64,000 nt of DNA, from IMG/VR virus record IMGVR_UViG_3300037840_000188, positions 1 to 64,000 of that record; one strand, written 5' to 3'. A model generated the notes under the pieces. The model saw nothing but the letters and a program-made list of their open reading frames with translations. It did not search any database and was not told where the DNA came from. Made by a program: the position numbers and the translations under genes. The stretch comes from a virus. This document shows, one piece after another, positions 1 through 13,143 of this stretch. Positions within the stretch are counted from its first letter, which is position 1, and every line of letters begins with the position of its first letter.

Positions 1-32
1 TTACCATCGAAGACCAGAAGTTAGTCGACCTG

Positions 33-248
33 GTGCAGGACGCCTTCGATAGGCAATACGAAATCAAAGTCACAGCCCATAATGAGGCTGTATCCTGGTG
101 TCGATCCAACTCTGGCTCAAAGTTCGCAACGGCGATTGTAAGGATGAATAACCCAGGTCACGCACTGGAAGTGGCTCCGACTATAGATCCAAAAGAGCGA
201 CGCAGGCAGGAGTTGCAGGAGCAATTGAAAGCACTCGACGGAAAGTAA
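33..248 (+). CDS. hypothetical protein (may begin upstream of the window)
   Basis: ORF abutting the next gene (TAA-ATG). Confidence 0.5.
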   Translation: MQDAFDRQYEIKVTAHNEAVSWCRSNSGSKFATAIVRMNNPGHALEVAPTIDPKERRRQELQEQLKALDGK

Positions 249-5624: not shown

Positions 5625-7100
5625 ATGCTGCCAACCCTACGCGATTACCAAGTACGGGACCTGGAAGCCATTCGTGAGGCTTTTAAGTATCATCGGGCCG
5701 TCCTCCTTCAGCAGCCGTGCGGGTCTGGGAAGGGCACCCTCGCATCATACATCGTAAAATCTGCGGCACAAAAGGGCAATCGCGTTATCTTTATGGTGGA
5801 TCGTCGCAGTTTGGTCGACGACATGAGCGACCGAATCAAAAGGCTAGACGTACCACATGGCGTTATTATGGCTACTGATTCACGTAGGGCACCGTGGGAG
5901 CCCATTCAAGTAGCCAGCATCGATACGATTACCCGCCGCGACACCCCCCCCGCCGCAGACATCTTGATTGTGGATGAGGCGCGTTTCAGTATTTCTGCTA
6001 AATGGAGAAAAGTTTTCGATAAGTACCCAAACGCGCGAATCCTTGGTTTGGATGCTACGCCAGCGCGTACGAGCGGAGAGGGATTAGGGAGATCCAGTGG
6101 TGGTATCTATGATCATATGGTTGTCGGACCTTCGGCTCAAGAGTTAATAAACAAGGGCCATCTCGTCAGATCGCACGTAATAGCGCCACCGCCCGTAGCC
6201 GCGCCATCAAGGGTCGTCGCTGGCGAGTTTCCCGCTGGTGCCGTATCGGCTGCCTGTGACACTAATCAAATAATCGGTGATGTTGTTAAGCAATGGAAGA
6301 AGCATGCAAGCGACCGTAAGACAGTTGGCTTTGGAGCGGATCAGAAGCATTGCCTGCATATGGCCGAGATGTTTCGTGAGGAAGGGATTGAAGCTACCAC
6401 TGTTTTCGATAGCACGCCTACTCTTGAGCGTCGTCGGCTCTGGAGTGATTTTAATTCCGGAACATTGCGCATTTTGATCTCAGTTGGCGTCATAGGATAT
6501 GGGGTCGATTTCCCTATATGTAAGGCGATTATCGACGCCGCTCACACGATGTCTCTTTCGAAGGCTATCCAGCGCTGGGCTCGTGGATCTCGTCCATTCA
6601 GCGGGTACGATTATTTCGTCCTCCTTGACCATGTTGGCAATATCGACCGCCGTTCACCACTAGCCCCTAATGGTTTCGGTTTTTATGAGGATGATCGTAT
6701 CTGGAGCCTTGAGGGGAGGGCTGTCCGTTCGCCCGAAGATGGTGATGATATGTCAGCGGGGATGGTTACTTGTCCGAAGTGCTATCACCGTTTCCGGTAC
6801 GGAAAAAAGGAGTGCCCAGGCTGCGGCTTTGCTATTACCGTAAAGCATCGGATAATGACTGTTGTCGAAGAAGAATTAGTCGAGCGCAAGCGCGCCGAGC
6901 AGAAAACGATGGCCATTGAAGAGTGGCGGACTAAATTGACAGATGAGGACAAGCGTCGGAAGTACGATGAGTGGAGAATAAAAGGTAAAAAACGGGGATA
7001 CAAAAATCAGTGGGCGGATTTATGTTGGAAACGGGTTTTCGGGTCTTGGCCATCAAAGGAATGGCGTAATTCTCCAATACCGGAAGAGGCGACGTTTTGA
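5625..7100 (+). CDS. SF2 DEAD/DEAH-like helicase with C-terminal Zn ribbon
   Basis: LRDYQ, PCGSGKG (Walker A variant), VDEAR, ATP motif III, QRWARGSR, LDHVGN, CPKC...CPGC. Confidence 0.9.
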   Translation: MLPTLRDYQVRDLEAIREAFKYHRAVLLQQPCGSGKGTLASYIVKSAAQKGNRVIFMVDRRSLVDDMSDRIKRLDVPHGVIMATDSRRAPWEPIQVASIDTITRRDTPPAADILIVDEARFSISAKWRKVFDKYPNARILGLDATPARTSGEGLGRSSGGIYDHMVVGPSAQELINKGHLVRSHVIAPPPVAAPSRVVAGEFPAGAVSAACDTNQIIGDVVKQWKKHASDRKTVGFGADQKHCLHMAEMFREEGIEATTVFDSTPTLERRRLWSDFNSGTLRILISVGVIGYGVDFPICKAIIDAAHTMSLSKAIQRWARGSRPFSGYDYFVLLDHVGNIDRRSPLAPNGFGFYEDDRIWSLEGRAVRSPEDGDDMSAGMVTCPKCYHRFRYGKKECPGCGFAITVKHRIMTVVEEELVERKRAEQKTMAIEEWRTKLTDEDKRRKYDEWRIKGKKRGYKNQWADLCWKRVFGSWPSKEWRNSPIPEEATF

Positions 7101-7579
7101 GGAAGCCGAAATCTCCAGCACAGTCACTGGCTGATGATTTTACAGAGGCGGCAGGCAGGCTATGGCCGCATACCCTGATGCACTGGGAAACAAAATTAAA
7201 CGGCACATTTGTTCCATTTAACTACGTGAAAAAGTCCGTCACGATACTGGAGGGAGTCATGGCCAGCAGACCAGAGATGAGAAATATTCTCGGGTCCGCC
7301 ATCGCGCTCCTCATGCATCCAGTAAAAAGCGGGCTTATTGGCGGCCCCGATAGTACTGCCATAATCGGCCACGCTCCTGGGGCGACCGTAGCACCAGGAA
7401 CTCATGCAGGCATTGAATATAAGGCAAAGTACGAACGGGGGCACGACACACAGAAAGATCAGCAGATTCTGTGTCAGGAAAATATAGAGCGCCACGGTGG
7501 CGTGTACATTCTTGTGGAATCCGTCGATCAGGGCATAGCCGATCTTAAGAAATACGCCGGTCCCGGAGAAAAAAAATGA
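7097..7579 (+). CDS. VRR-NUC-like PD-(D/E)xK nuclease
   Basis: GGPD...IEYKA...Q...Q...GGVYILVESVD, adjacent to helicase. Confidence 0.7.
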   Translation: MRKPKSPAQSLADDFTEAAGRLWPHTLMHWETKLNGTFVPFNYVKKSVTILEGVMASRPEMRNILGSAIALLMHPVKSGLIGGPDSTAIIGHAPGATVAPGTHAGIEYKAKYERGHDTQKDQQILCQENIERHGGVYILVESVDQGIADLKKYAGPGEKK

Positions 7580-8535: not shown

Positions 8536-8963
8536 GGGAGTCTACTACAAAGCAGGAGCGTGTCACTCAATGCAACGAGATCCTTCGCATCTGCGCCTCG
8601 CATGGACGCCGTTTTTTCAGTCACGACGCGGACCGCCTGGAGCGCGAGACCAATCCAGCTATTAGCCATTTTGAGCTTGACCCACGCGGACGTATCTGGT
8701 TTATTGACAAGTATACGGGGAAGCGAATCTACACGGCATACAAATACAAGTGGCGCGGCTTCAGTGACGGCGGTACGCTGCGTTCTCTCTGTGACGCTTT
8801 GTGCGATTACATTCGAGCGGAAAAGAATACTATCCCGCTGGGGCATTTTGGTCCTTTTCAGGAATGGCGCTGTGGTGGCGATCCGTGGGCATACGGCAAG
8901 GAAGAGATGGCGGAGGTCAGGCGCAAGGTAGTGGAGATATTCAATCCCGAGGTAACAGCATGA
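8532..8963 (+). CDS. hypothetical phage protein
   Basis: GTGA-coupled; HGRRFF, GRIWFIDKY, WRGFSDGGTLR, WAY motifs. Confidence 0.6.
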   Translation: MRESTTKQERVTQCNEILRICASHGRRFFSHDADRLERETNPAISHFELDPRGRIWFIDKYTGKRIYTAYKYKWRGFSDGGTLRSLCDALCDYIRAEKNTIPLGHFGPFQEWRCGGDPWAYGKEEMAEVRRKVVEIFNPEVTA

Positions 8964-9418
8964 TAGTCATCGACTACGTCCGCGAAGAGGTCGAGCGCCA
9001 AGGTCATAATATCCACACCCTCGACGGCATCGAGCGCGTTGGGTGGATGCTGGATGCATGGGCTCACGCGCTTGCGAACGCCGACAGTGAACCAACGATA
9101 TCCGGAGCGATCCAGCTTGGAATGATGATAGAGCGGCATAAAAATGCCAATGGAATCAGAAAATGCCAAGTCCGTGTCGGTAGCCGTACGTGCCCTGACT
9201 TCAAGGACGTACCGAGATTACTGGAAGGACTTTTCAGTTACAATCGAAAATTTCCTCCGCCTTTGGAATTTTACAGGCAATTTGAAGAGATTCATCCATT
9301 CGAGGACGGCAACGGGCGCACTGGGAAAATATTGCTCAATTGGCTGAACGGATCACTCCTCGATAGCCCAATCTTTCCGCCCGACAACTTTTGGGGAAGA
9401 CCAATAAGAAACCCGTAG
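8960..9418 (+). CDS. Fic/DOC family protein
   Basis: HPFEDGNGRTGK motif (HPFxxGNGR). Confidence 0.9.
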   Translation: MIVIDYVREEVERQGHNIHTLDGIERVGWMLDAWAHALANADSEPTISGAIQLGMMIERHKNANGIRKCQVRVGSRTCPDFKDVPRLLEGLFSYNRKFPPPLEFYRQFEEIHPFEDGNGRTGKILLNWLNGSLLDSPIFPPDNFWGRPIRNP

Positions 9419-9423
9419 AGATT

Positions 9424-10050
9424 ATGGACACCACCCAGCAACGCAAAGCCGACACCCAGCACCCACTGACGAATCGGGGACCAGCCGCCAGGACCCCAAT
9501 CGGCGGAAAATTTCTGGCGCACGGCTTGACACCTGCGACGTTCCAGCCGCTTCCGAAGCCTCGCAAGACCACGATCCATGCCACAGGAGTGCCGTCAGGC
9601 CCTAAGTGTCAGTTCGTATCGATTGCGCGGTCGAACGCCTCCAAGTCTGATGTCGCAGAACATCTACGCCTGCATAACGAGAGGCAGGCGCAGTTAAAAC
9701 CAACGGGCTTCATACCTGGACAGAAATGCTCGTGGTGCCTTGAGGCGTTCGCCACTCAACCGCTCTATTCGCAGCATCGGCACGTATGCAGTCAGAGACC
9801 AGGCGGACCGCTTCCAGTAGGCCCGCTTTGGGCTACTATGGGCGGGACCCGTCTGGATATTTTCTCCGTATGTGAGTGCGGCGCTGGATTTTCCACGCGA
9901 TCCGCAAAGAAGCGCCATGTGGCAACAGGAGAGTGCCCGCTGGAGCATGTTCCGGACCCGACAATGTGTTGGCTGTGCGGGGACTGGTCCCCTACTCGCG
10001 GGGAGTGGAAGGCGCATCGGCATACTTGCGTGAGACAGGGGGCGGACTAA
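9424..10050 (+). CDS. protein with three C2HC/C2H2-like zinc fingers
   Basis: CSWC..F..HRHVC, CECGAGF..RH....EC, CWLC...AHRHTC. Confidence 0.55.
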   Translation: MDTTQQRKADTQHPLTNRGPAARTPIGGKFLAHGLTPATFQPLPKPRKTTIHATGVPSGPKCQFVSIARSNASKSDVAEHLRLHNERQAQLKPTGFIPGQKCSWCLEAFATQPLYSQHRHVCSQRPGGPLPVGPLWATMGGTRLDIFSVCECGAGFSTRSAKKRHVATGECPLEHVPDPTMCWLCGDWSPTRGEWKAHRHTCVRQGAD

Positions 10051-10055
10051 CAAAT

Positions 10056-10331
10056 ATGGCTCATTCTACAAAATCCGCCCCATCTATCGAACTTTCACTG
10101 CCAGATCGCCTGCGCGTCCTGATCGCAGCCGCATTCGATGTGGAATCCGTGCGCGACCAGGATCGGCTCGATCAGTGGCCTTCGCTGGATTTTATGGAAG
10201 CCGTCGTTGCCTGCGAGCGTCACCTCGGCCTGGGCGAAACTGACGAAGACAGGTTGATGAAGTGCGAGACGGTGGGGCATCTTGTAGCTATCTTCAACGT
10301 TCCCATCTCTATCCAGGAGCCTGTTGTTTAA
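10056..10331 (+). CDS. acyl carrier protein-like protein
   Basis: 91 aa, acidic; WPSLDFMEAVVACERHLG...ETVGHLV resembles ACP (D)SLDxxE..F..I...TVGD. Confidence 0.55.
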   Translation: MAHSTKSAPSIELSLPDRLRVLIAAAFDVESVRDQDRLDQWPSLDFMEAVVACERHLGLGETDEDRLMKCETVGHLVAIFNVPISIQEPVV

Positions 10332-10768
10332 TGCAGGCCGCTCGCGAAGTCACCGATGACGGTAATACTAAATGGGTCGATTGCAGCGGCTGCAAGCACC
10401 CGCGACCGTTCTCCTGGTACACAAAAGACGTACACACTCTGCTTGGGATCGGCTACCTATGTCGGTCGTGCAGGCCGAAGGGGAACAAGCTGAAAGTCGT
10501 CGATCCAGATTATGAGGTGATCCGCACGGTCAACGCAAAGCCCCTGCGCCCAGAGAAAGAAAAGATGGCCGCTGGGTCATGGGAACGTGTGGTGAGGCGC
10601 GCGGCGCTATGTGCGCAATATGAATGCGTAATTGTCTATGTTGGAAAAGAAAATTACCTTTCCCGTCAGTCCGCGCTATCAGGCCTTCATCTCGCGGCGA
10701 AGAGAATGAAAATGAAGATCTCCATTCGACATGGTCGAAGTGAATTATATGTAAAAGTCAAGGAGTGA
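10331..10768 (+). CDS. Zn-ribbon protein with basic C-terminal domain; contains the gapped match to the pentamer array
   Basis: CSGC...CRSC; region 10634-10677 matches array dinucleotides. Confidence 0.6.
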   Translation: MQAAREVTDDGNTKWVDCSGCKHPRPFSWYTKDVHTLLGIGYLCRSCRPKGNKLKVVDPDYEVIRTVNAKPLRPEKEKMAAGSWERVVRRAALCAQYECVIVYVGKENYLSRQSALSGLHLAAKRMKMKISIRHGRSELYVKVKE

Positions 10769-10773
10769 CAAGC

Positions 10774-10941
10774 ATGAAGGCGAAAAAGAAAAATAAGGCA
10801 GCTCAAAATCTTGTCGCGATGAGAAATAAAAAACTATCCCCAGCGCGCCGAAAAGAAATAGCACAGAAAGCAGCACAAAAAAGATGGAAAAATAATGCTT
10901 ACGAAAGCATTGACGTGAAGCCTCCCGCGAGTATAAAGTAA
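10774..10941 (+). CDS. small basic protein (LSPxRRxEIAxKAAxxRW motif)
   Basis: 55 aa ORF read by hand: MKAKKKNKAAQNLVAMRNKKLSPARRKEIAQKAAQKRW..; AAGGAG RBS. Confidence 0.6.
   Translation: MKAKKKNKAAQNLVAMRNKKLSPARRKEIAQKAAQKRWKNNAYESIDVKPPASIK
10910..10939 (+). promoter_or_regulatory. sigma70-like promoter of the RAMP gene, probably leaderless
   Basis: TTGACG 10910-10915; TATAAA/TAAAGT 10932-10939; ATG at 10946. Confidence 0.55.
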
Positions 10942-10945
10942 GCAC

Positions 10946-11554
10946 ATGGCCAAACAAACAGCACTTGAGCCCGTATCAAATGACGCCGAATCCGTAATCG
11001 ACATCAGTCAGCCATATGTAGCGCTCGTCAGTGTAGTTGGCACTGCACCGTTTCTCTTTCATCGTTGGAGCGTCGAGGGTGTGGACGCAAAGGCGAAAGC
11101 GGCTAAGGGATCAAAAGCCAAGAGGTCAGACGATCTTGAATCTTACGTCTACCGTAATATGAAGGGCGAACTTTGCATTCCGGGCGAATATCTGCGCATG
11201 GCGATCATTGGAGCCGCCAAGTTCCGACAAGATCCGCGCTCTCCCCGAAAGAGCGCAATGGATCTTTTTAAGGCTGGTGTTGTCGCAATTGAACCTCTTT
11301 GCTCGCTCGGCGTTTCTGACTGGTCATATGTCGATCAGAGGCGCGTGATGATCCAGCGTAATGGCATTACCCGATCCCGTCCGGCAATGGAATCCGGATG
11401 GAAAGTAGACTTTCTGATTCAATGCCTTCTGCCGGAGTACATTCCAGCCGATACCCTCAATGAAGTAATTCAGAGCGCGGGAAGGCTTATCGGTATGGGA
11501 GATTTCAGGCCGACGTACGGGAGGTTCCAAGTTACAGGTTTCGAGATTTCTTGA
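10946..11554 (+). CDS. stand-alone Cas7/RAMP-like RNA-binding protein
   Basis: N-terminal strand VSVVGTAPFLFH, LCIPGEYLRMAI (IPGxxxK/R-like), R-P thumb region, C-terminal Gly loop AGRLIGMGDFRPTYGRFQV; no other cas genes in window. Confidence 0.7.
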   Translation: MAKQTALEPVSNDAESVIDISQPYVALVSVVGTAPFLFHRWSVEGVDAKAKAAKGSKAKRSDDLESYVYRNMKGELCIPGEYLRMAIIGAAKFRQDPRSPRKSAMDLFKAGVVAIEPLCSLGVSDWSYVDQRRVMIQRNGITRSRPAMESGWKVDFLIQCLLPEYIPADTLNEVIQSAGRLIGMGDFRPTYGRFQVTGFEIS

Positions 11555-11570
11555 GTTTTGAAAAAACTTC

Positions 11571-11655
11571 GTGGTGTGGTTAGGTGTGGAGGGGCAAGAT
11601 AAGGTTAGGATTGGATCGGAAGGGTCAGGCTCGGCGCGGTTTGGCAAGGCATGGT
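11571..11655 (+). repeat. array of 17 tandem NN-GGN pentamers (putative guide ncRNA, about 11553-11702)
   Basis: gtGGT gtGGT taGGT gtGGA ggGGC aaGAT aaGGT taGGA ttGGA tcGGA agGGT caGGC tcGGC gcGGT ttGGC aaGGC atGGT; 16/17 units have GG at positions 3-4. Confidence 0.9.
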
Positions 11656-11702
11656 GCTGATTCTGGTTGATTTTAAGTAATCACCAGAATCAGCTTTACT
11701 TT
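11656..11702 (+). terminator. hairpin closing the pentamer array
   Basis: GCTGATTCTGG-T-TGATT / AATCA-CCAGAATCAGC stem followed by TTTACTTT. Confidence 0.75.
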
Positions 11703-11719
11703 GAAAGGAATAAAATTAC

Positions 11720-12010
11720 TTGACTTTGTCATACGCAGCGACACTAAGAACTGAAAGACTCCTGCCGCGTCCGATTGTATACTACGGCTCTACTTATGAA
11801 TCGGTGGAAGGAGTAGCTCAAAAATGGTTACAAGCCAATGGTGAGCACGGTGATTCTTTCGTTATCATCGAGAACGTACCTGTCGAGCGCGCAGTGATTG
11901 AGTGTCAAAAGCCGAAACGAGAAAGAGTATACAAGGGCCACGCATTCGTGTCCGGGCCGAACCTGAATCGGTGTGATGTTTGTGGACGGAAAGAAGAGGA
12001 GCACAAGTAG
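11720..12010 (+). CDS. hypothetical protein
   Basis: TTG start after AAGGA; C-terminal H..CxxC..H. Confidence 0.5.
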   Translation: MTLSYAATLRTERLLPRPIVYYGSTYESVEGVAQKWLQANGEHGDSFVIIENVPVERAVIECQKPKRERVYKGHAFVSGPNLNRCDVCGRKEEEHK

Positions 12011-12907
12011 ATGAGAATCGTAGAGCCAGAAGTCTATCTACTGGCGCAGACCAGCATGGATGTAAAACCGCCAAAGGCATTTCGCGGAAACTTGCAGGCT
12101 TATCTTGAAAAAGTGGGAGTTGCCGAATGGAAGACAACGGCATGTACAGACGGGGAAATGCTCGTGGAGGTGGCTGGACGCCTCTGCTATAAAGCTTTCG
12201 GTTTGGGCTTGAATGCCAACGTCACTAAAGTCCGAGAGGGTAATCAGATTTACCTGGAGAATCTCGCCAAGCAGGATCACGGGTCAGTACAGGAGCATTC
12301 GACGGTTACATTTTTATTCCGAGACGTGAGTCGCATCCTGACGCATGAACTCGTCCGGCATCGCGTTGGCGTAGCGATATCCCAGGAATCCGGACGGTAC
12401 GTCAGAGCCGATGACGTTGGTCTTTACATCCCGGAATGCTTCAAGGAATGCCCCGGCACAGTCGATATGATCAAGACCCATGTCGAAGCTGGCGAGGATT
12501 TAGCTCGCCGTTTGACGATAGCGTTCGATCTGGACAATCCGAAGACGGCTTTCGCCCGAAAGAAGGAAGTGACTTCGGCACTCCGCCGTTTTGCTCCGTT
12601 CGGCCACTCATCGTCGCTCGTGTGGACCACCAATCACCGCAATCTTCGCTTCGTTCTCCAGAAGCGAACCGAGGGTGGCGCGGAAGAAGAAATTCGCAAA
12701 CTCTTCGATCCGGTTGGTTACGGCATGAAGGAGATGTTCCCAAATCTGTATCAGGATATTTACCGTCGTGAATCCGGGGAATGGGTGTCGAAATTTTCAG
12801 CGCGTGGTTTGGCGGATGACCTAAGAAGGTTGATTGCCAGTGGGCCAGATGGCGGCGTCAAAAATTCCAGCGGAATCGAGGCACTCCTGAAAGAGCGGGG
12901 ACTCTGA
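12011..12907 (+). CDS. thyX: FAD-dependent thymidylate synthase
   Basis: HGSVQEH, THELVRHRVGVAISQESGRY (RHRx7S), R...AEEEIR motifs. Confidence 0.93.
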   Translation: MRIVEPEVYLLAQTSMDVKPPKAFRGNLQAYLEKVGVAEWKTTACTDGEMLVEVAGRLCYKAFGLGLNANVTKVREGNQIYLENLAKQDHGSVQEHSTVTFLFRDVSRILTHELVRHRVGVAISQESGRYVRADDVGLYIPECFKECPGTVDMIKTHVEAGEDLARRLTIAFDLDNPKTAFARKKEVTSALRRFAPFGHSSSLVWTTNHRNLRFVLQKRTEGGAEEEIRKLFDPVGYGMKEMFPNLYQDIYRRESGEWVSKFSARGLADDLRRLIASGPDGGVKNSSGIEALLKERGL

Positions 12908-13143
12908 TGGCCACAAAGAAAGAAGCCGTAAACCATCCTTCCCATTACGGTGGTGCCGATAACCCTTATGAGGCGATCAAAGTTATAGAGGCATGGCAGC
13001 TAGACTTTTGTCTTGGAAACGCCCTGAAATACATTGCGCGAGCTGGAAAGAAAGACGCCGCCACAGAGTTTGAAGATCTGGAAAAAGCCGAATGGTACCT
13101 CAAGCGCCGCATCGAGAAATTGAGCGCGAATTCCTCAAAGTAG
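12907..13143 (+). CDS. DUF3310 family protein
   Basis: VNHPSHY, FCLGNALKYIARAGKK, EDLEKAEWYL. Confidence 0.9.
   Translation: MATKKEAVNHPSHYGGADNPYEAIKVIEAWQLDFCLGNALKYIARAGKKDAATEFEDLEKAEWYLKRRIEKLSANSSK

What the first reader, a model, noticed from the sequence alone, without database searches (positions are those of the whole stretch)
10946..11702. Stand-alone Cas7/RAMP-like gene followed by an NN-GGN pentamer array: candidate minimal RNA-guided system
Seen: a 202-aa ORF with its own promoter. Starting 17 nt after its stop are 17 in-register pentamers with constant GG(T/C/A) and variable NN, bracketed by a small 5' hairpin (AGTTTT-gaa-AAAACT) and a 16-bp 3' hairpin with a U-rich tail. There is no CRISPR array or other cas gene in the window. 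Known: RAMP/Cas7 proteins have an N-terminal strand, an IPG-type motif and a C-terminal Gly loop, and polymerise along RNA with a fixed step. Inference: each subunit binds one GGN anchor and displays NN for pairing, so repeat and spacer are interleaved. This resembles my recollection of recently reported phage VIPR-type systems, which I cannot verify here.
Basis: partly seen in the sequence, partly recalled or inferred. Interest (0 to 1): 0.96.

Follow-up and report, generated by a model that had tools for sequence, protein, structure and literature searches.

The report
Phage VIPR system: Vipr plus guide RNA
This is a real phage-borne VIPR system, a small Cas7-like protein gene followed by its pentamer-repeat guide RNA; the kind was first described in 2026 preprints, so this is a new member and not a new kind, and its guide appears to be aimed at a neighbouring early gene as carried by rival sibling phages.

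Summary
ORF 10946-11554 (202 aa) is followed, 15 nt after its stop, by 17 in-register YNNGG pentamers (11570-11654; 16 carry GG). A 16-bp hairpin with a U-rich tail comes next. This is the only such array in the 140,995-bp circular phage genome, and it lies far outside shuffled controls.

- A family profile matches the solved SUSP1 Vipr protein (PDB 36pp) at E 7e-18.
- The residues that hold GGY in SUSP1 are conserved here: H39, R145, D186, F187 and R188.
- The AlphaFold model (pLDDT 93.7) matches Csm3/Cmr4/Cas7 at Z 10-12.
- 76 of 80 viral homologue loci carry same-strand YNNGG arrays next to the gene. Position 1 is a pyrimidine in 87% of units and the NN positions are unbiased.

VIPR was published in 2026 (bioRxiv 10.64898/2026.04.26.720920 and .720927), so this is a new member of a known kind.

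- This clade has no conserved vap gene.
- The tail here is a terminator-type hairpin, not a pseudoknot.
- Read by the published 1-nt-skip rule, the guide matches the phage's own neighbouring gene at 25 of 28 positions. The match is broken by a derived one-codon insertion.
- The closest sibling phage's guide matches this phage at 17 of 20 positions.

No full external target was found. The scan's first readers had already noted the self-match on this same window.

The parts
10765..10941 (+). Small lysine/arginine-rich ORF directly upstream of vipr (58 aa, or 55 aa from the ATG at 10774). It is a weak candidate for an accessory, vap-like gene.
   Evidence: Pfam gives no hit and PHROG gives only E 9e-4. 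Among 88 loci it is conserved only in the closest sibling, L081 (91% over 43 aa). There it again sits directly upstream of vipr, but in a different gene neighbourhood. The related phage L099 has an unrelated 60-aa ORF in this slot.
10910..10937 (+). Sigma-70-like promoter TTGACG-16-TATAAA inside the end of the small ORF. It would give a nearly leaderless vipr mRNA.
   Evidence: The consensus scan scored 9 of 12, and I read the sequence directly. Relatives L082, L088 and L102 have TTGACA-17-TATAAC-like promoters just upstream of vipr. This is a consensus match only and is not shown to be active.
10946..11554 (+). vipr gene. It encodes a 202-aa minimal RAMP (Cas7-like) protein.
   Evidence: PHROG phrog_4652 matches at E 5e-17. 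phmmer against PDB 36pp, 'SUSP1 Vipr protein', gives E 6e-6. A 71-sequence profile gives E 7.4e-18 over nearly the full length. The AF2 model has pLDDT 93.7. Foldseek top hits are all Cas7, Csm3 or Cas7-11, at E about 5e-7. VIA-align gives Z 11.8 to Cmr and 11.2 to Csm3.
11553..11569 (+). Small A/U hairpin overlapping the stop codon.
   Evidence: It appears in the predicted fold. It is absent from relatives L081, L082 and L088, so it is probably incidental.
11570..11654 (+). vrRNA guide tract of 17 YNNGG repeats. The NN series is GT GT TA GT GG AA AA TA TT TC AG CA TC GC TT AA AT.
   Evidence: The family logo from 3,980 pentamers in 275 arrays has Y at 87% of position 1 and about 25% of each base at positions 2-3.
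11656..11702 (+). 3' tail: a 16-bp hairpin (11656-11694) followed by TTTACTTT. It probably serves as both an intrinsic terminator and the 3' cap of the vrRNA.
   Evidence: Predicted fold. Relatives end their arrays with ..CATGG followed by a hairpin of different sequence and a T run. The tool's terminator scan did not list it.
10634..10678 (+). Near-match to the guide inside the resident gene orf168 (10331..10768). The match follows the 1-nt-skip code and is interrupted by the GAA (Glu) codon at 10649-10651.
   Evidence: Units 2-15 match 25 of 28 bases, in frame, with the skipped base at the wobble position. The full-length score with one gap is 26 of 34, against a null maximum of 25 in 100 shuffles. 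The local score is 20 against a null bulk of 10-15; 1 of 800 shuffles reached 20. The Glu codon is absent from both homologues.
7550..7579 (+). Site matched by the guide of sibling phage L081. It covers the last codons of ORF 7097..7579, which lies just after the helicase gene.
   Evidence: The match is 17 of 20 bases, with 8 consecutive perfect units, in frame. None of 1000 shuffles reached the observed local score, and only the 1-nt skip rule gives this match. L081's own allele matches worse.

Best explanation
This is a VIPR (Viral Interference Programmable Repeat) system carried by a 141-kb phage.

Proposed mechanism. The vipr gene and the repeat tract are probably transcribed together from the promoter at about 10910 and end at the hairpin at 11656-11694. 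Vipr protomers would load one per pentamer. Each would sequester a GG-pyrimidine triplet through H39 and D186 (first G), R145 and F187 (second G) and R188 (pyrimidine), leaving the 17 NN dinucleotides exposed. The filament would then read double-stranded DNA in a two-read, one-skip register and repress transcription at the matching site.

Likely target. The guide probably targets the orf168 early gene as carried by closely related competitor phages. The resident copy is spared for two reasons. It carries a one-codon insertion inside the footprint, which breaks the register. It also differs at the only three positions in the footprint where a first-codon-base change is synonymous.

What is shown and what is inferred. 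Shown here: homology, fold, conserved contact residues, the family-wide link between gene and array, and the code-consistent matches. Inferred: transcription, RNP assembly, DNA silencing and the identity of the true target.
For: Protein:
- The profile built from 71 homologues matches the solved SUSP1 Vipr protein at E 7.4e-18. The single sequence gives E 6e-6.
- The SUSP1 GGY-contact residues H17, R138, D177, W178 and R179 (paper .720927) align with H39, R145, D186, F187 and R188 here. Of these, R145, D186 and R188 are nearly invariant in the family, and the neighbouring P146 is invariant.
- The model has a RAMP fold with a thumb hairpin (128-148) and a glycine loop.

RNA:
- The 17 YNNGG units fit the published definition.
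- 76 of 80 IMG/VR homologue loci have same-strand arrays next to the gene.
- The family logo is Y-N-N-G-G.
- A 93%-identical sibling carries a completely different NN series.

Code and target:
- The own-genome near-match is 25 of 28 bases, in frame.
- The homologous site is the best gapless hit in both relatives' loci: 23 of 34 in L081 and 21 of 34 in L099.
- The reciprocal L081 guide matches this genome at 17 of 20.
- There is no gapless self-target of 80% or more, as the paper reports for other VIPRs.

Context:
- The surrounding genes are phage early and nucleotide-metabolism genes, and the contig is circular.
Against: - There is no RNA or binding data for this locus.
- Exact-seed scans found no external target with 9-11 consecutive perfect units. 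They covered three windows of the guide in viral contigs and two each in genome and metagenome contigs. All hits were at chance level.
- Four of the 17 units have A where the SUSP1 pocket excludes purines, and unit 6 lacks GG.
- The tail is not the conserved pseudoknot of the SUSP1 clade.
- There is no conserved vap gene.
- The self-match statistic is good but not overwhelming. One of 800 shuffles equalled it.
- Among 270 more distant guides there is no excess of hits to this genome over reversed controls.
Confidence: 0.92

Rival explanations
1. The VIPR system is real, but the guide acts on the phage's own orf168 as a timing or autoregulatory switch. It would tolerate the one-codon bulge or use only units 7-15, and would not be aimed at competitors.
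For: The best match in 141 kb lies in the resident genome, 900 bp upstream on the same strand. No better external target was found.
Against: The published filament fixes five RNA bases per three DNA bases per protomer, so a 3-nt insertion should put every downstream unit out of register. The insertion is derived, since it is absent from both homologues, and it falls exactly inside the footprint. All three synonymous first-position sites in the footprint differ from the guide. The published surveys found no self-targeting and found lower self scores than non-self scores.
Confidence: 0.12
2. The repeat tract is a protein-binding RNA without guide function, for example a 3'-UTR operator or sponge that titrates the protein. 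This would resemble TRAP binding to spaced GAG/UAG triplets or CsrA binding to GGA sponges.
For: The array sits in the 3' UTR of the protein's own gene. No confirmed external target was found.
Against: The NN positions are unbiased across the family and differ completely between 93%-identical siblings. That fits a specificity code and not an operator. Two independent guides give in-frame matches under the 1-nt-skip rule only. The homologous SUSP1 system was shown experimentally to be guide-programmed.
Confidence: 0.04
3. The periodicity is a by-product, arising from chance, a decayed coding repeat or the 107-aa reverse-strand ORF 11324..11647.
For: A reverse-strand ORF overlaps the tract.
Against: The window scores 10 of 10 against shuffle maxima of 5-7. 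The same feature flanks 76 of 80 homologues on the gene's own strand. The reverse-strand 'family' found in the neighbour clustering is only the translated repeat.
Confidence: 0.01

Closest known systems
SUSP1 / Pseudomonas fulva prophage VIPR (type II; bioRxiv 10.64898/2026.04.26.720920 and .720927; PDB 36pp)
   Same: Both have a Vipr protein of about 202 aa that is homologous (E 7e-18 by profile), with conserved GGY-contact residues. Both have YNNGG tandem repeats with hypervariable NN, sit in phages, and lack a CRISPR array. Code-consistent matches fall in frame, with the skipped base at the wobble position.
   Different: Pairwise similarity is low; phmmer aligns mainly the C-terminal third. 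The second-G stacking residue is F187 where SUSP1 has W. The pyrimidine pocket reads Y82, I182 and M184 where SUSP1 has M72, C173 and residue 175, and A occurs after GG in 4 of 17 units. There is a single guide of 17 units, against 9-16 units and several guides per locus in SUSP1. The tail is a terminator-type hairpin of non-conserved sequence, not a conserved pseudoknot. No conserved vap gene was found. The VIPR type (I-VII) could not be assigned here.
Class 1 CRISPR backbone subunits (Csm3, Cmr4, Cas7, type VII Cas7, Cas7-11)
   Same: The RRM core, thumb hairpin and glycine loop are shared (Z 10-12). Both oligomerise along the guide with a fixed step and with flipped bases.
   Different: Sequence identity is about 10-15%. 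The step is 5 nt on the RNA and 3 nt on the DNA, not 6 and 6. Repeat and 'spacer' are interleaved within every unit. There are no Cas5, Cas6, large or small subunits, no adaptation genes and no CRISPR array.
TRAP with the trp leader RNA (Bacillus), recalled from my own knowledge
   Same: A protein oligomer reads short conserved triplets spaced by 2-3 variable bases, which gives a period of about 5 nt.
   Different: The fold is unrelated. TRAP is a closed 11-mer ring, its variable bases carry no targeting information, and it regulates attenuation. The comparison is a resemblance in RNA periodicity only.

Membership tests
VIPR system | The protein is a homologue of Vipr. | tested here: met
   phmmer against PDB 36pp 'SUSP1 Vipr protein' gives E 6.3e-6. 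The 71-sequence profile gives E 7.4e-18, aligning profile positions 33-206 with chain residues 5-189.
VIPR system | Minimal RAMP architecture: a single RRM core, a thumb and a glycine-rich loop. | tested here: met
   The AF2 model has pLDDT 93.7. Its order is beta1, helical insert, helix-1, a beta-hairpin at 128-148, helix 168-182, a loop at 183-193 and a last strand. Cas7-family chains fill the top of both fold searches.
VIPR system | The residues that hold GGY in the solved filament (SUSP1 H17, R138, D177, W178, R179) are conserved. | tested here: met
   They align with H39, R145, D186, F187 (aromatic retained) and R188. R145, D186 and R188 are conserved in 90% or more of 71 homologues.
VIPR system | A tandem YNNGG (GGY/NN) repeat tract lies next to vipr, with at least 4 units (9-16 in the characterised clades). 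| tested here: met
   There are 17 units at 11570-11654. GG is present in 16, and Y in 13 with A in 4. This is one unit above the range quoted for type II.
VIPR system | GGY is conserved and NN is hypervariable among relatives. | tested here: met
   In 3,980 pentamers from 275 arrays, position 1 is C 41%, T 46%, A 9% and G 3%, and positions 2-3 are 20-30% for each base. Siblings with 88-93% identical protein have unrelated NN series.
VIPR system | A structured 3' tail caps the repeat tract. | tested here: inconclusive
   A stable hairpin with a U-rich run is present, and relatives also end in ..CATGG plus a hairpin. The hairpin sequence is not conserved, and no pseudoknot was tested.
VIPR system | An accessory vap gene sits beside vipr. 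This is typical but not universal, since stand-alone genes are reported. | tested here: not met
   No neighbour family recurs across the 88 loci. Only a small basic ORF travels with vipr, in the window and in L081. The paper allows stand-alone vipr genes, so this is not disqualifying.
VIPR system | The system is encoded on a virus or provirus, with no CRISPR array. | tested here: met
   The contig is 140,995 bp with a terminal overlap. It carries helicase, ThyX, DUF3310 and Fic genes. Relatives lie on IMG/VR contigs. There are no CRISPR-like repeats.
VIPR system | The guide matches natural DNA by the 1-nt-skip rule at 80% NN or more. | tested here: inconclusive
   The window guide matches 25 of 28 bases (89%) over 14 units, but only with a 3-nt gap, and in its own genome. 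No external target was found. The sibling L081 guide matches this genome at 17 of 20 (85%) without a gap.
VIPR system | The vrRNA is expressed and co-purifies with Vipr, and repression is programmable. | not testable with these tools
CRISPR-Cas class 1 effector | A CRISPR repeat-spacer array together with a multi-subunit cas operon. | tested here: not met
   The window has no direct-repeat families, and the neighbouring genes are unrelated to cas genes.

The most novel reading that the evidence does not exclude
The resident phage may protect itself from its own guide in a way specific to the gapped code. A single in-frame codon insertion (GAA at 10649-10651) inside the footprint puts all downstream units out of register. 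In addition, the resident gene differs from the guide at all three synonymous first-position sites (two Leu, one Arg) within the matched codons. The guide would therefore still hit the ancestral allele carried by sibling phages. The sibling L081's guide hits this phage in turn. The small basic ORF, vipr and guide would together form a three-part module that moves between genome slots. It is absent from the syntenic slot of L099 and sits in a different neighbourhood in L081.
Probability: 0.4. Interest if true: 0.6.

Novelty: new member of a known kind. Interest (0 to 1): 0.4.

Why it matters
VIPR is a months-old discovery: RNA-guided DNA silencing by a noncontiguous code, proposed as a precursor of CRISPR. 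So far it has been characterised mainly in two type II clades from Escherichia and Pseudomonas. This locus belongs to a large clade that is poorly annotated and distant from those two. The word-indexed search returned about 7,000 protein clusters at 90% identity, and the only GenBank phage relative is labelled 'HTH regulator'. The clade has no accessory gene, and the window's tail is a simple terminator hairpin.

The locus gives a compact natural test case of about 0.8 kb with one protein and one guide. It also provides sequence-level hints of reciprocal targeting between sibling phages and of self-protection by a register-breaking codon insertion. These ideas can be tested directly with reporter assays. 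As a discovery in itself it is not new.

Tried and rejected
- Pfam found nothing for the protein, and Rfam found nothing in 10000-13000.
- Exact-seed target scans by the 1-nt-skip rule gave 2, 3, 2, 0, 0, 1 and 2 hits. The scans were units 1-9, 5-13 and 9-17 in viral contigs, and units 7-17 and 2-11 in genome and metagenome contigs. Every hit matched the remaining units at chance level, 18-23 of 34 overall. These scans miss targets that have scattered mismatches.
- Gapless self-target scans under 0, 1, 2 and 3-nt skip rules gave at most 20-22 of 34, which is within the null range.
- Clustering of neighbour ORFs across 88 loci found no conserved accessory gene. The largest 'family' was the reverse translation of the arrays themselves.
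- Searches for orf168 homologues found only two, in L081 and L099. The ESM Atlas gave no usable function; the best feature score was 0.77 and TM-scores were below 0.5.
- 270 guides from more distant relatives showed no excess of matches to this genome over reversed-order controls.
- The second contig that carries the identical protein (L101) is 100% identical over 3,349 bp, so it is not a variant allele.
- The VIPR type (I-VII) could not be assigned, because the paper's figures and data files are not held.

Full report
**1. What is in the sequence**

ORF 10946..11554 (+ strand, 202 aa) ends with TGA at 11552-11554. A weak A/U hairpin lies at 11553-11569. It is followed by 17 in-register pentamers at 11570-11654.

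- In the YNNGG register, 16 of the 17 units end in GG. Unit 6 reads CAAGA.
- The first base of the unit is C or T in 13 units and A in 4. It is never G.
- The two middle bases vary. The NN series is GT GT TA GT GG AA AA TA TT TC AG CA TC GC TT AA AT.
- Directly after the tract comes a 16-bp hairpin (11656-11694) and then TTTACTTT.

A period-5 GG count over ten units reaches 10 of 10 only at this place on either strand of the window. Twenty shuffles reach 5-7. In the whole 140,995-bp genome this is the only run of seven or more such units. The corrections are minor: the gap after the stop is 15 nt, and the 5' hairpin is weak and absent from relatives.

**2. The protein**

Pfam is silent. PHROGs places the protein in phrog_4652, of unknown function, at E 5e-17.

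Against the sequences of all PDB chains, the single sequence hits one entry: 36pp, 'SUSP1 Vipr protein', at E 6.3e-6. A profile of 71 homologues hits the same chain at E 7.4e-18 over almost its full length.

The cryo-EM paper names the residues that hold the GGY triplet:
- H17 and D177 hold the first G.
- R138 and W178 hold the second G.
- R179 holds the pyrimidine.

In the HMMER alignments these fall on H39, D186, R145, F187 and R188 of the window protein. R145, D186 and R188 are conserved in at least 90% of the 71 homologues, and P146 and W152 are invariant.

The AlphaFold2 model is confident, with mean pLDDT 93.7. It shows an RRM core, a helical insert, a beta-hairpin at 128-148 and a glycine loop before the last strand.

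- Foldseek returns only Cas7-type chains at the top: type VII Cas7, Csm3, Csm5 and Cas7-11, at E about 5e-7 and probability 1.00.
- The Foldseek-independent search gives Z 11.8 to a Cmr subunit, 11.2 to Csm3 and 9.9 to Cmr4.

The RAMP reading is therefore supported by both fold and sequence.

**3. The family-wide link between gene and array**

The protein has about 7,000 relatives at 90% clustering and 1,423 representative clusters at E of 0.001 or better. None has a functional name.

Of 80 IMG/VR loci that encode a relative, 76 carry runs of seven or more xxxGG pentamers next to the gene. These are almost always on the gene's strand, upstream, downstream or both.

Pooling 3,980 pentamers from 275 such runs gives C 41%, T 46%, A 9% and G 3% at position 1, and near-uniform bases at positions 2 and 3. 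This is the YNNGG logo.

Siblings with 88-93% identical protein (L081, L082, L088) have unrelated NN series. They share the way the tract ends..CATGG, then a hairpin of different sequence, then a T run.

The one GenBank phage with a relative is Phage DSL-LC04, at 58% identity. There the gene is annotated as an 'HTH transcriptional regulator', and the 320-bp gap upstream of it is filled with the same repeats.

**4. What is known**

Three preprints matter here.

- bioRxiv 10.64898/2026.04.26.720920 describes Vipr proteins and vrRNAs of alternating GGY and NN. It reports DNA recognition in which each NN pairs and one target base is skipped, programmable transcriptional silencing, and natural targets in competing phages and satellites.
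- bioRxiv .720927 gives the filament structures, with one protomer per repeat.
- A third preprint shows phage-versus-satellite competition. It also notes that guides score lower on their own genome than on rivals.

The membership features I could test are met:
- protein homology;
- RAMP architecture;
- conserved contact residues;
- the repeat tract;
- hypervariable NN;
- viral location and absence of a CRISPR array.

Two features differ:
- There is no conserved accessory gene in this clade. The paper allows stand-alone genes.
- The tail is a terminator-type hairpin, not the conserved pseudoknot of the SUSP1 clade.

Expression and binding could not be tested.

**5. Target**

Gapless scans of the phage's own genome under the 0-3-nt skip rules give nothing above the null. 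This agrees with the paper's report that VIPRs do not target themselves.

An earlier first-reader note on this window (e1-5883285) claimed a gapped match in the upstream gene. I checked it.

- Guide units 2-15 match codon positions 1 and 2 of 10634-10678 at 25 of 28 bases. This lies in orf168, whose likely true start is at 10331. The skipped base is always the wobble position.
- A 3-nt gap (GAA, Glu, at 10649-10651) falls between units 6 and 7.
- With one 3-nt gap allowed, this is the best site in 141 kb: 26 of 34, against at most 25 in 100 order-shuffles. The local score is 20 against a null bulk of 10-15, and only 1 of 800 shuffles reached 20.
- The three mismatches are TT against CT (Leu), AG against CG (Arg) and TT against CT (Leu). 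These are the only positions in the matched codons where a first-base change is silent.

orf168 has only two detectable homologues. Both lack the Glu codon. In both, the homologous site is the best gapless hit of the guide in the locus: 23 of 34 in L081, the best among all 98 loci held at that point, and 21 of 34 in L099.

The simplest reading is that the guide is aimed at the ancestral form of this site in close relatives. The resident copy would carry a derived insertion that breaks the rigid five-to-three register. This is inference. Exact-seed scans of viral, genome and metagenome collections found no such allele, and all their hits were chance. Those scans cannot see targets with scattered mismatches.

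**6. Reciprocal hit**

The guide of the closest sibling, L081 (93% identical Vipr), has a 10-unit run that matches window 7550-7579 at 17 of 20 bases. Eight consecutive units are perfect. The site covers the last codons of the ORF just after the helicase gene, and the match is in frame.

None of 1,000 order-shuffles reached the observed score, and only the 1-nt skip rule produces the match. L081's own allele of that gene matches worse.

One caution applies. Among 270 guides from more distant relatives there is no excess over reversed controls, and one control also reached the same score. The result depends on L081 being one of only three close siblings tested.

**7. Context**

The contig's first bases recur at 140863, so the genome is assembled as a circle. 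An identical 3.3-kb stretch occurs in another metagenome (L101), and the same gene order is recorded on a third contig.

Relative to L099, orf168 and orf96-ThyX are syntenic. However, the slot between them holds an unrelated 60-aa ORF in L099, where the window has the small basic ORF, vipr and the guide.

In L081 the same three parts sit together after a different gene. The three parts therefore behave as a movable module. The small basic ORF is at best a weak candidate for an accessory gene.

**8. Verdict**

It is a new member of a kind that has been public since April 2026, so the novelty score has to be modest.

What this locus adds:
- a minimal, vap-less, single-guide example from a large clade that has not been characterised;
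- sequence-level support for the 1-nt-skip code outside the two studied clades;
- a testable idea about self-protection by a codon insertion.

Noticed in passing
window 1-133 and genome 140863-140995: The first 40 bases of the contig recur at 140863, which gives a terminal overlap of about 133 bp. The 141-kb phage genome therefore appears to be complete and assembled as a circle.
   Followed up: partly
L099:10001-11609: A related phage has the orf168 homologue, then an unrelated 60-aa ORF, then the orf96 homologue (48% identical), then ThyX. It has no vipr and no array. The small ORF, vipr and guide in the window occupy a variable slot.
   Followed up: yes
L048:3594-4084, L030:3115-3622, L006:3756-4038: Relatives carry very long uninterrupted tracts: 98 units in one register in L048, and 61 plus 39 perfect units in L030. 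They also carry abutting runs whose register shifts by one base, as in L006. This resembles the 'staggered arrays' mentioned in the VIPR paper. How such tracts are cut into guides is unclear.
   Followed up: no
L100:1181-1500 (Phage DSL-LC04, OR003939.1): In this isolated lake phage the Vipr homologue (58% identical) is annotated as a 'helix-turn-helix transcriptional regulator'. The 320-bp gap upstream of it is filled with YNNGG repeats. This is a mis-annotated public VIPR locus.
   Followed up: partly
window 11640-11654; L001:2065; L082 and L088 array ends: Arrays in this clade often end with ..GGCATGG immediately before a terminator hairpin. CATGG is the second most common last unit, in 26 of 275 runs. 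It may be a conserved 3' boundary signal.
   Followed up: partly
window 10910-10946: The -10 element of the vipr promoter-like site ends about 8 nt before the ATG, and there is no Shine-Dalgarno sequence. The vipr mRNA may therefore be leaderless here. Relatives have a leader of about 20 nt with AGGAG.
   Followed up: no
window 10331-10768 (orf168): The gene that carries the guide-like site encodes a 145-aa protein. It has an N-terminal CxxC...CxxC zinc-ribbon pattern and no detectable family. Only two homologues were found among 5.8 billion proteins.
   Followed up: partly
window 8801-9418, 12011-12907, 12907-13143: A Fic-domain protein, a ThyX thymidylate synthase and a DUF3310 protein flank the locus. 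This is a typical early and nucleotide-metabolism region of a large phage.
   Followed up: partly
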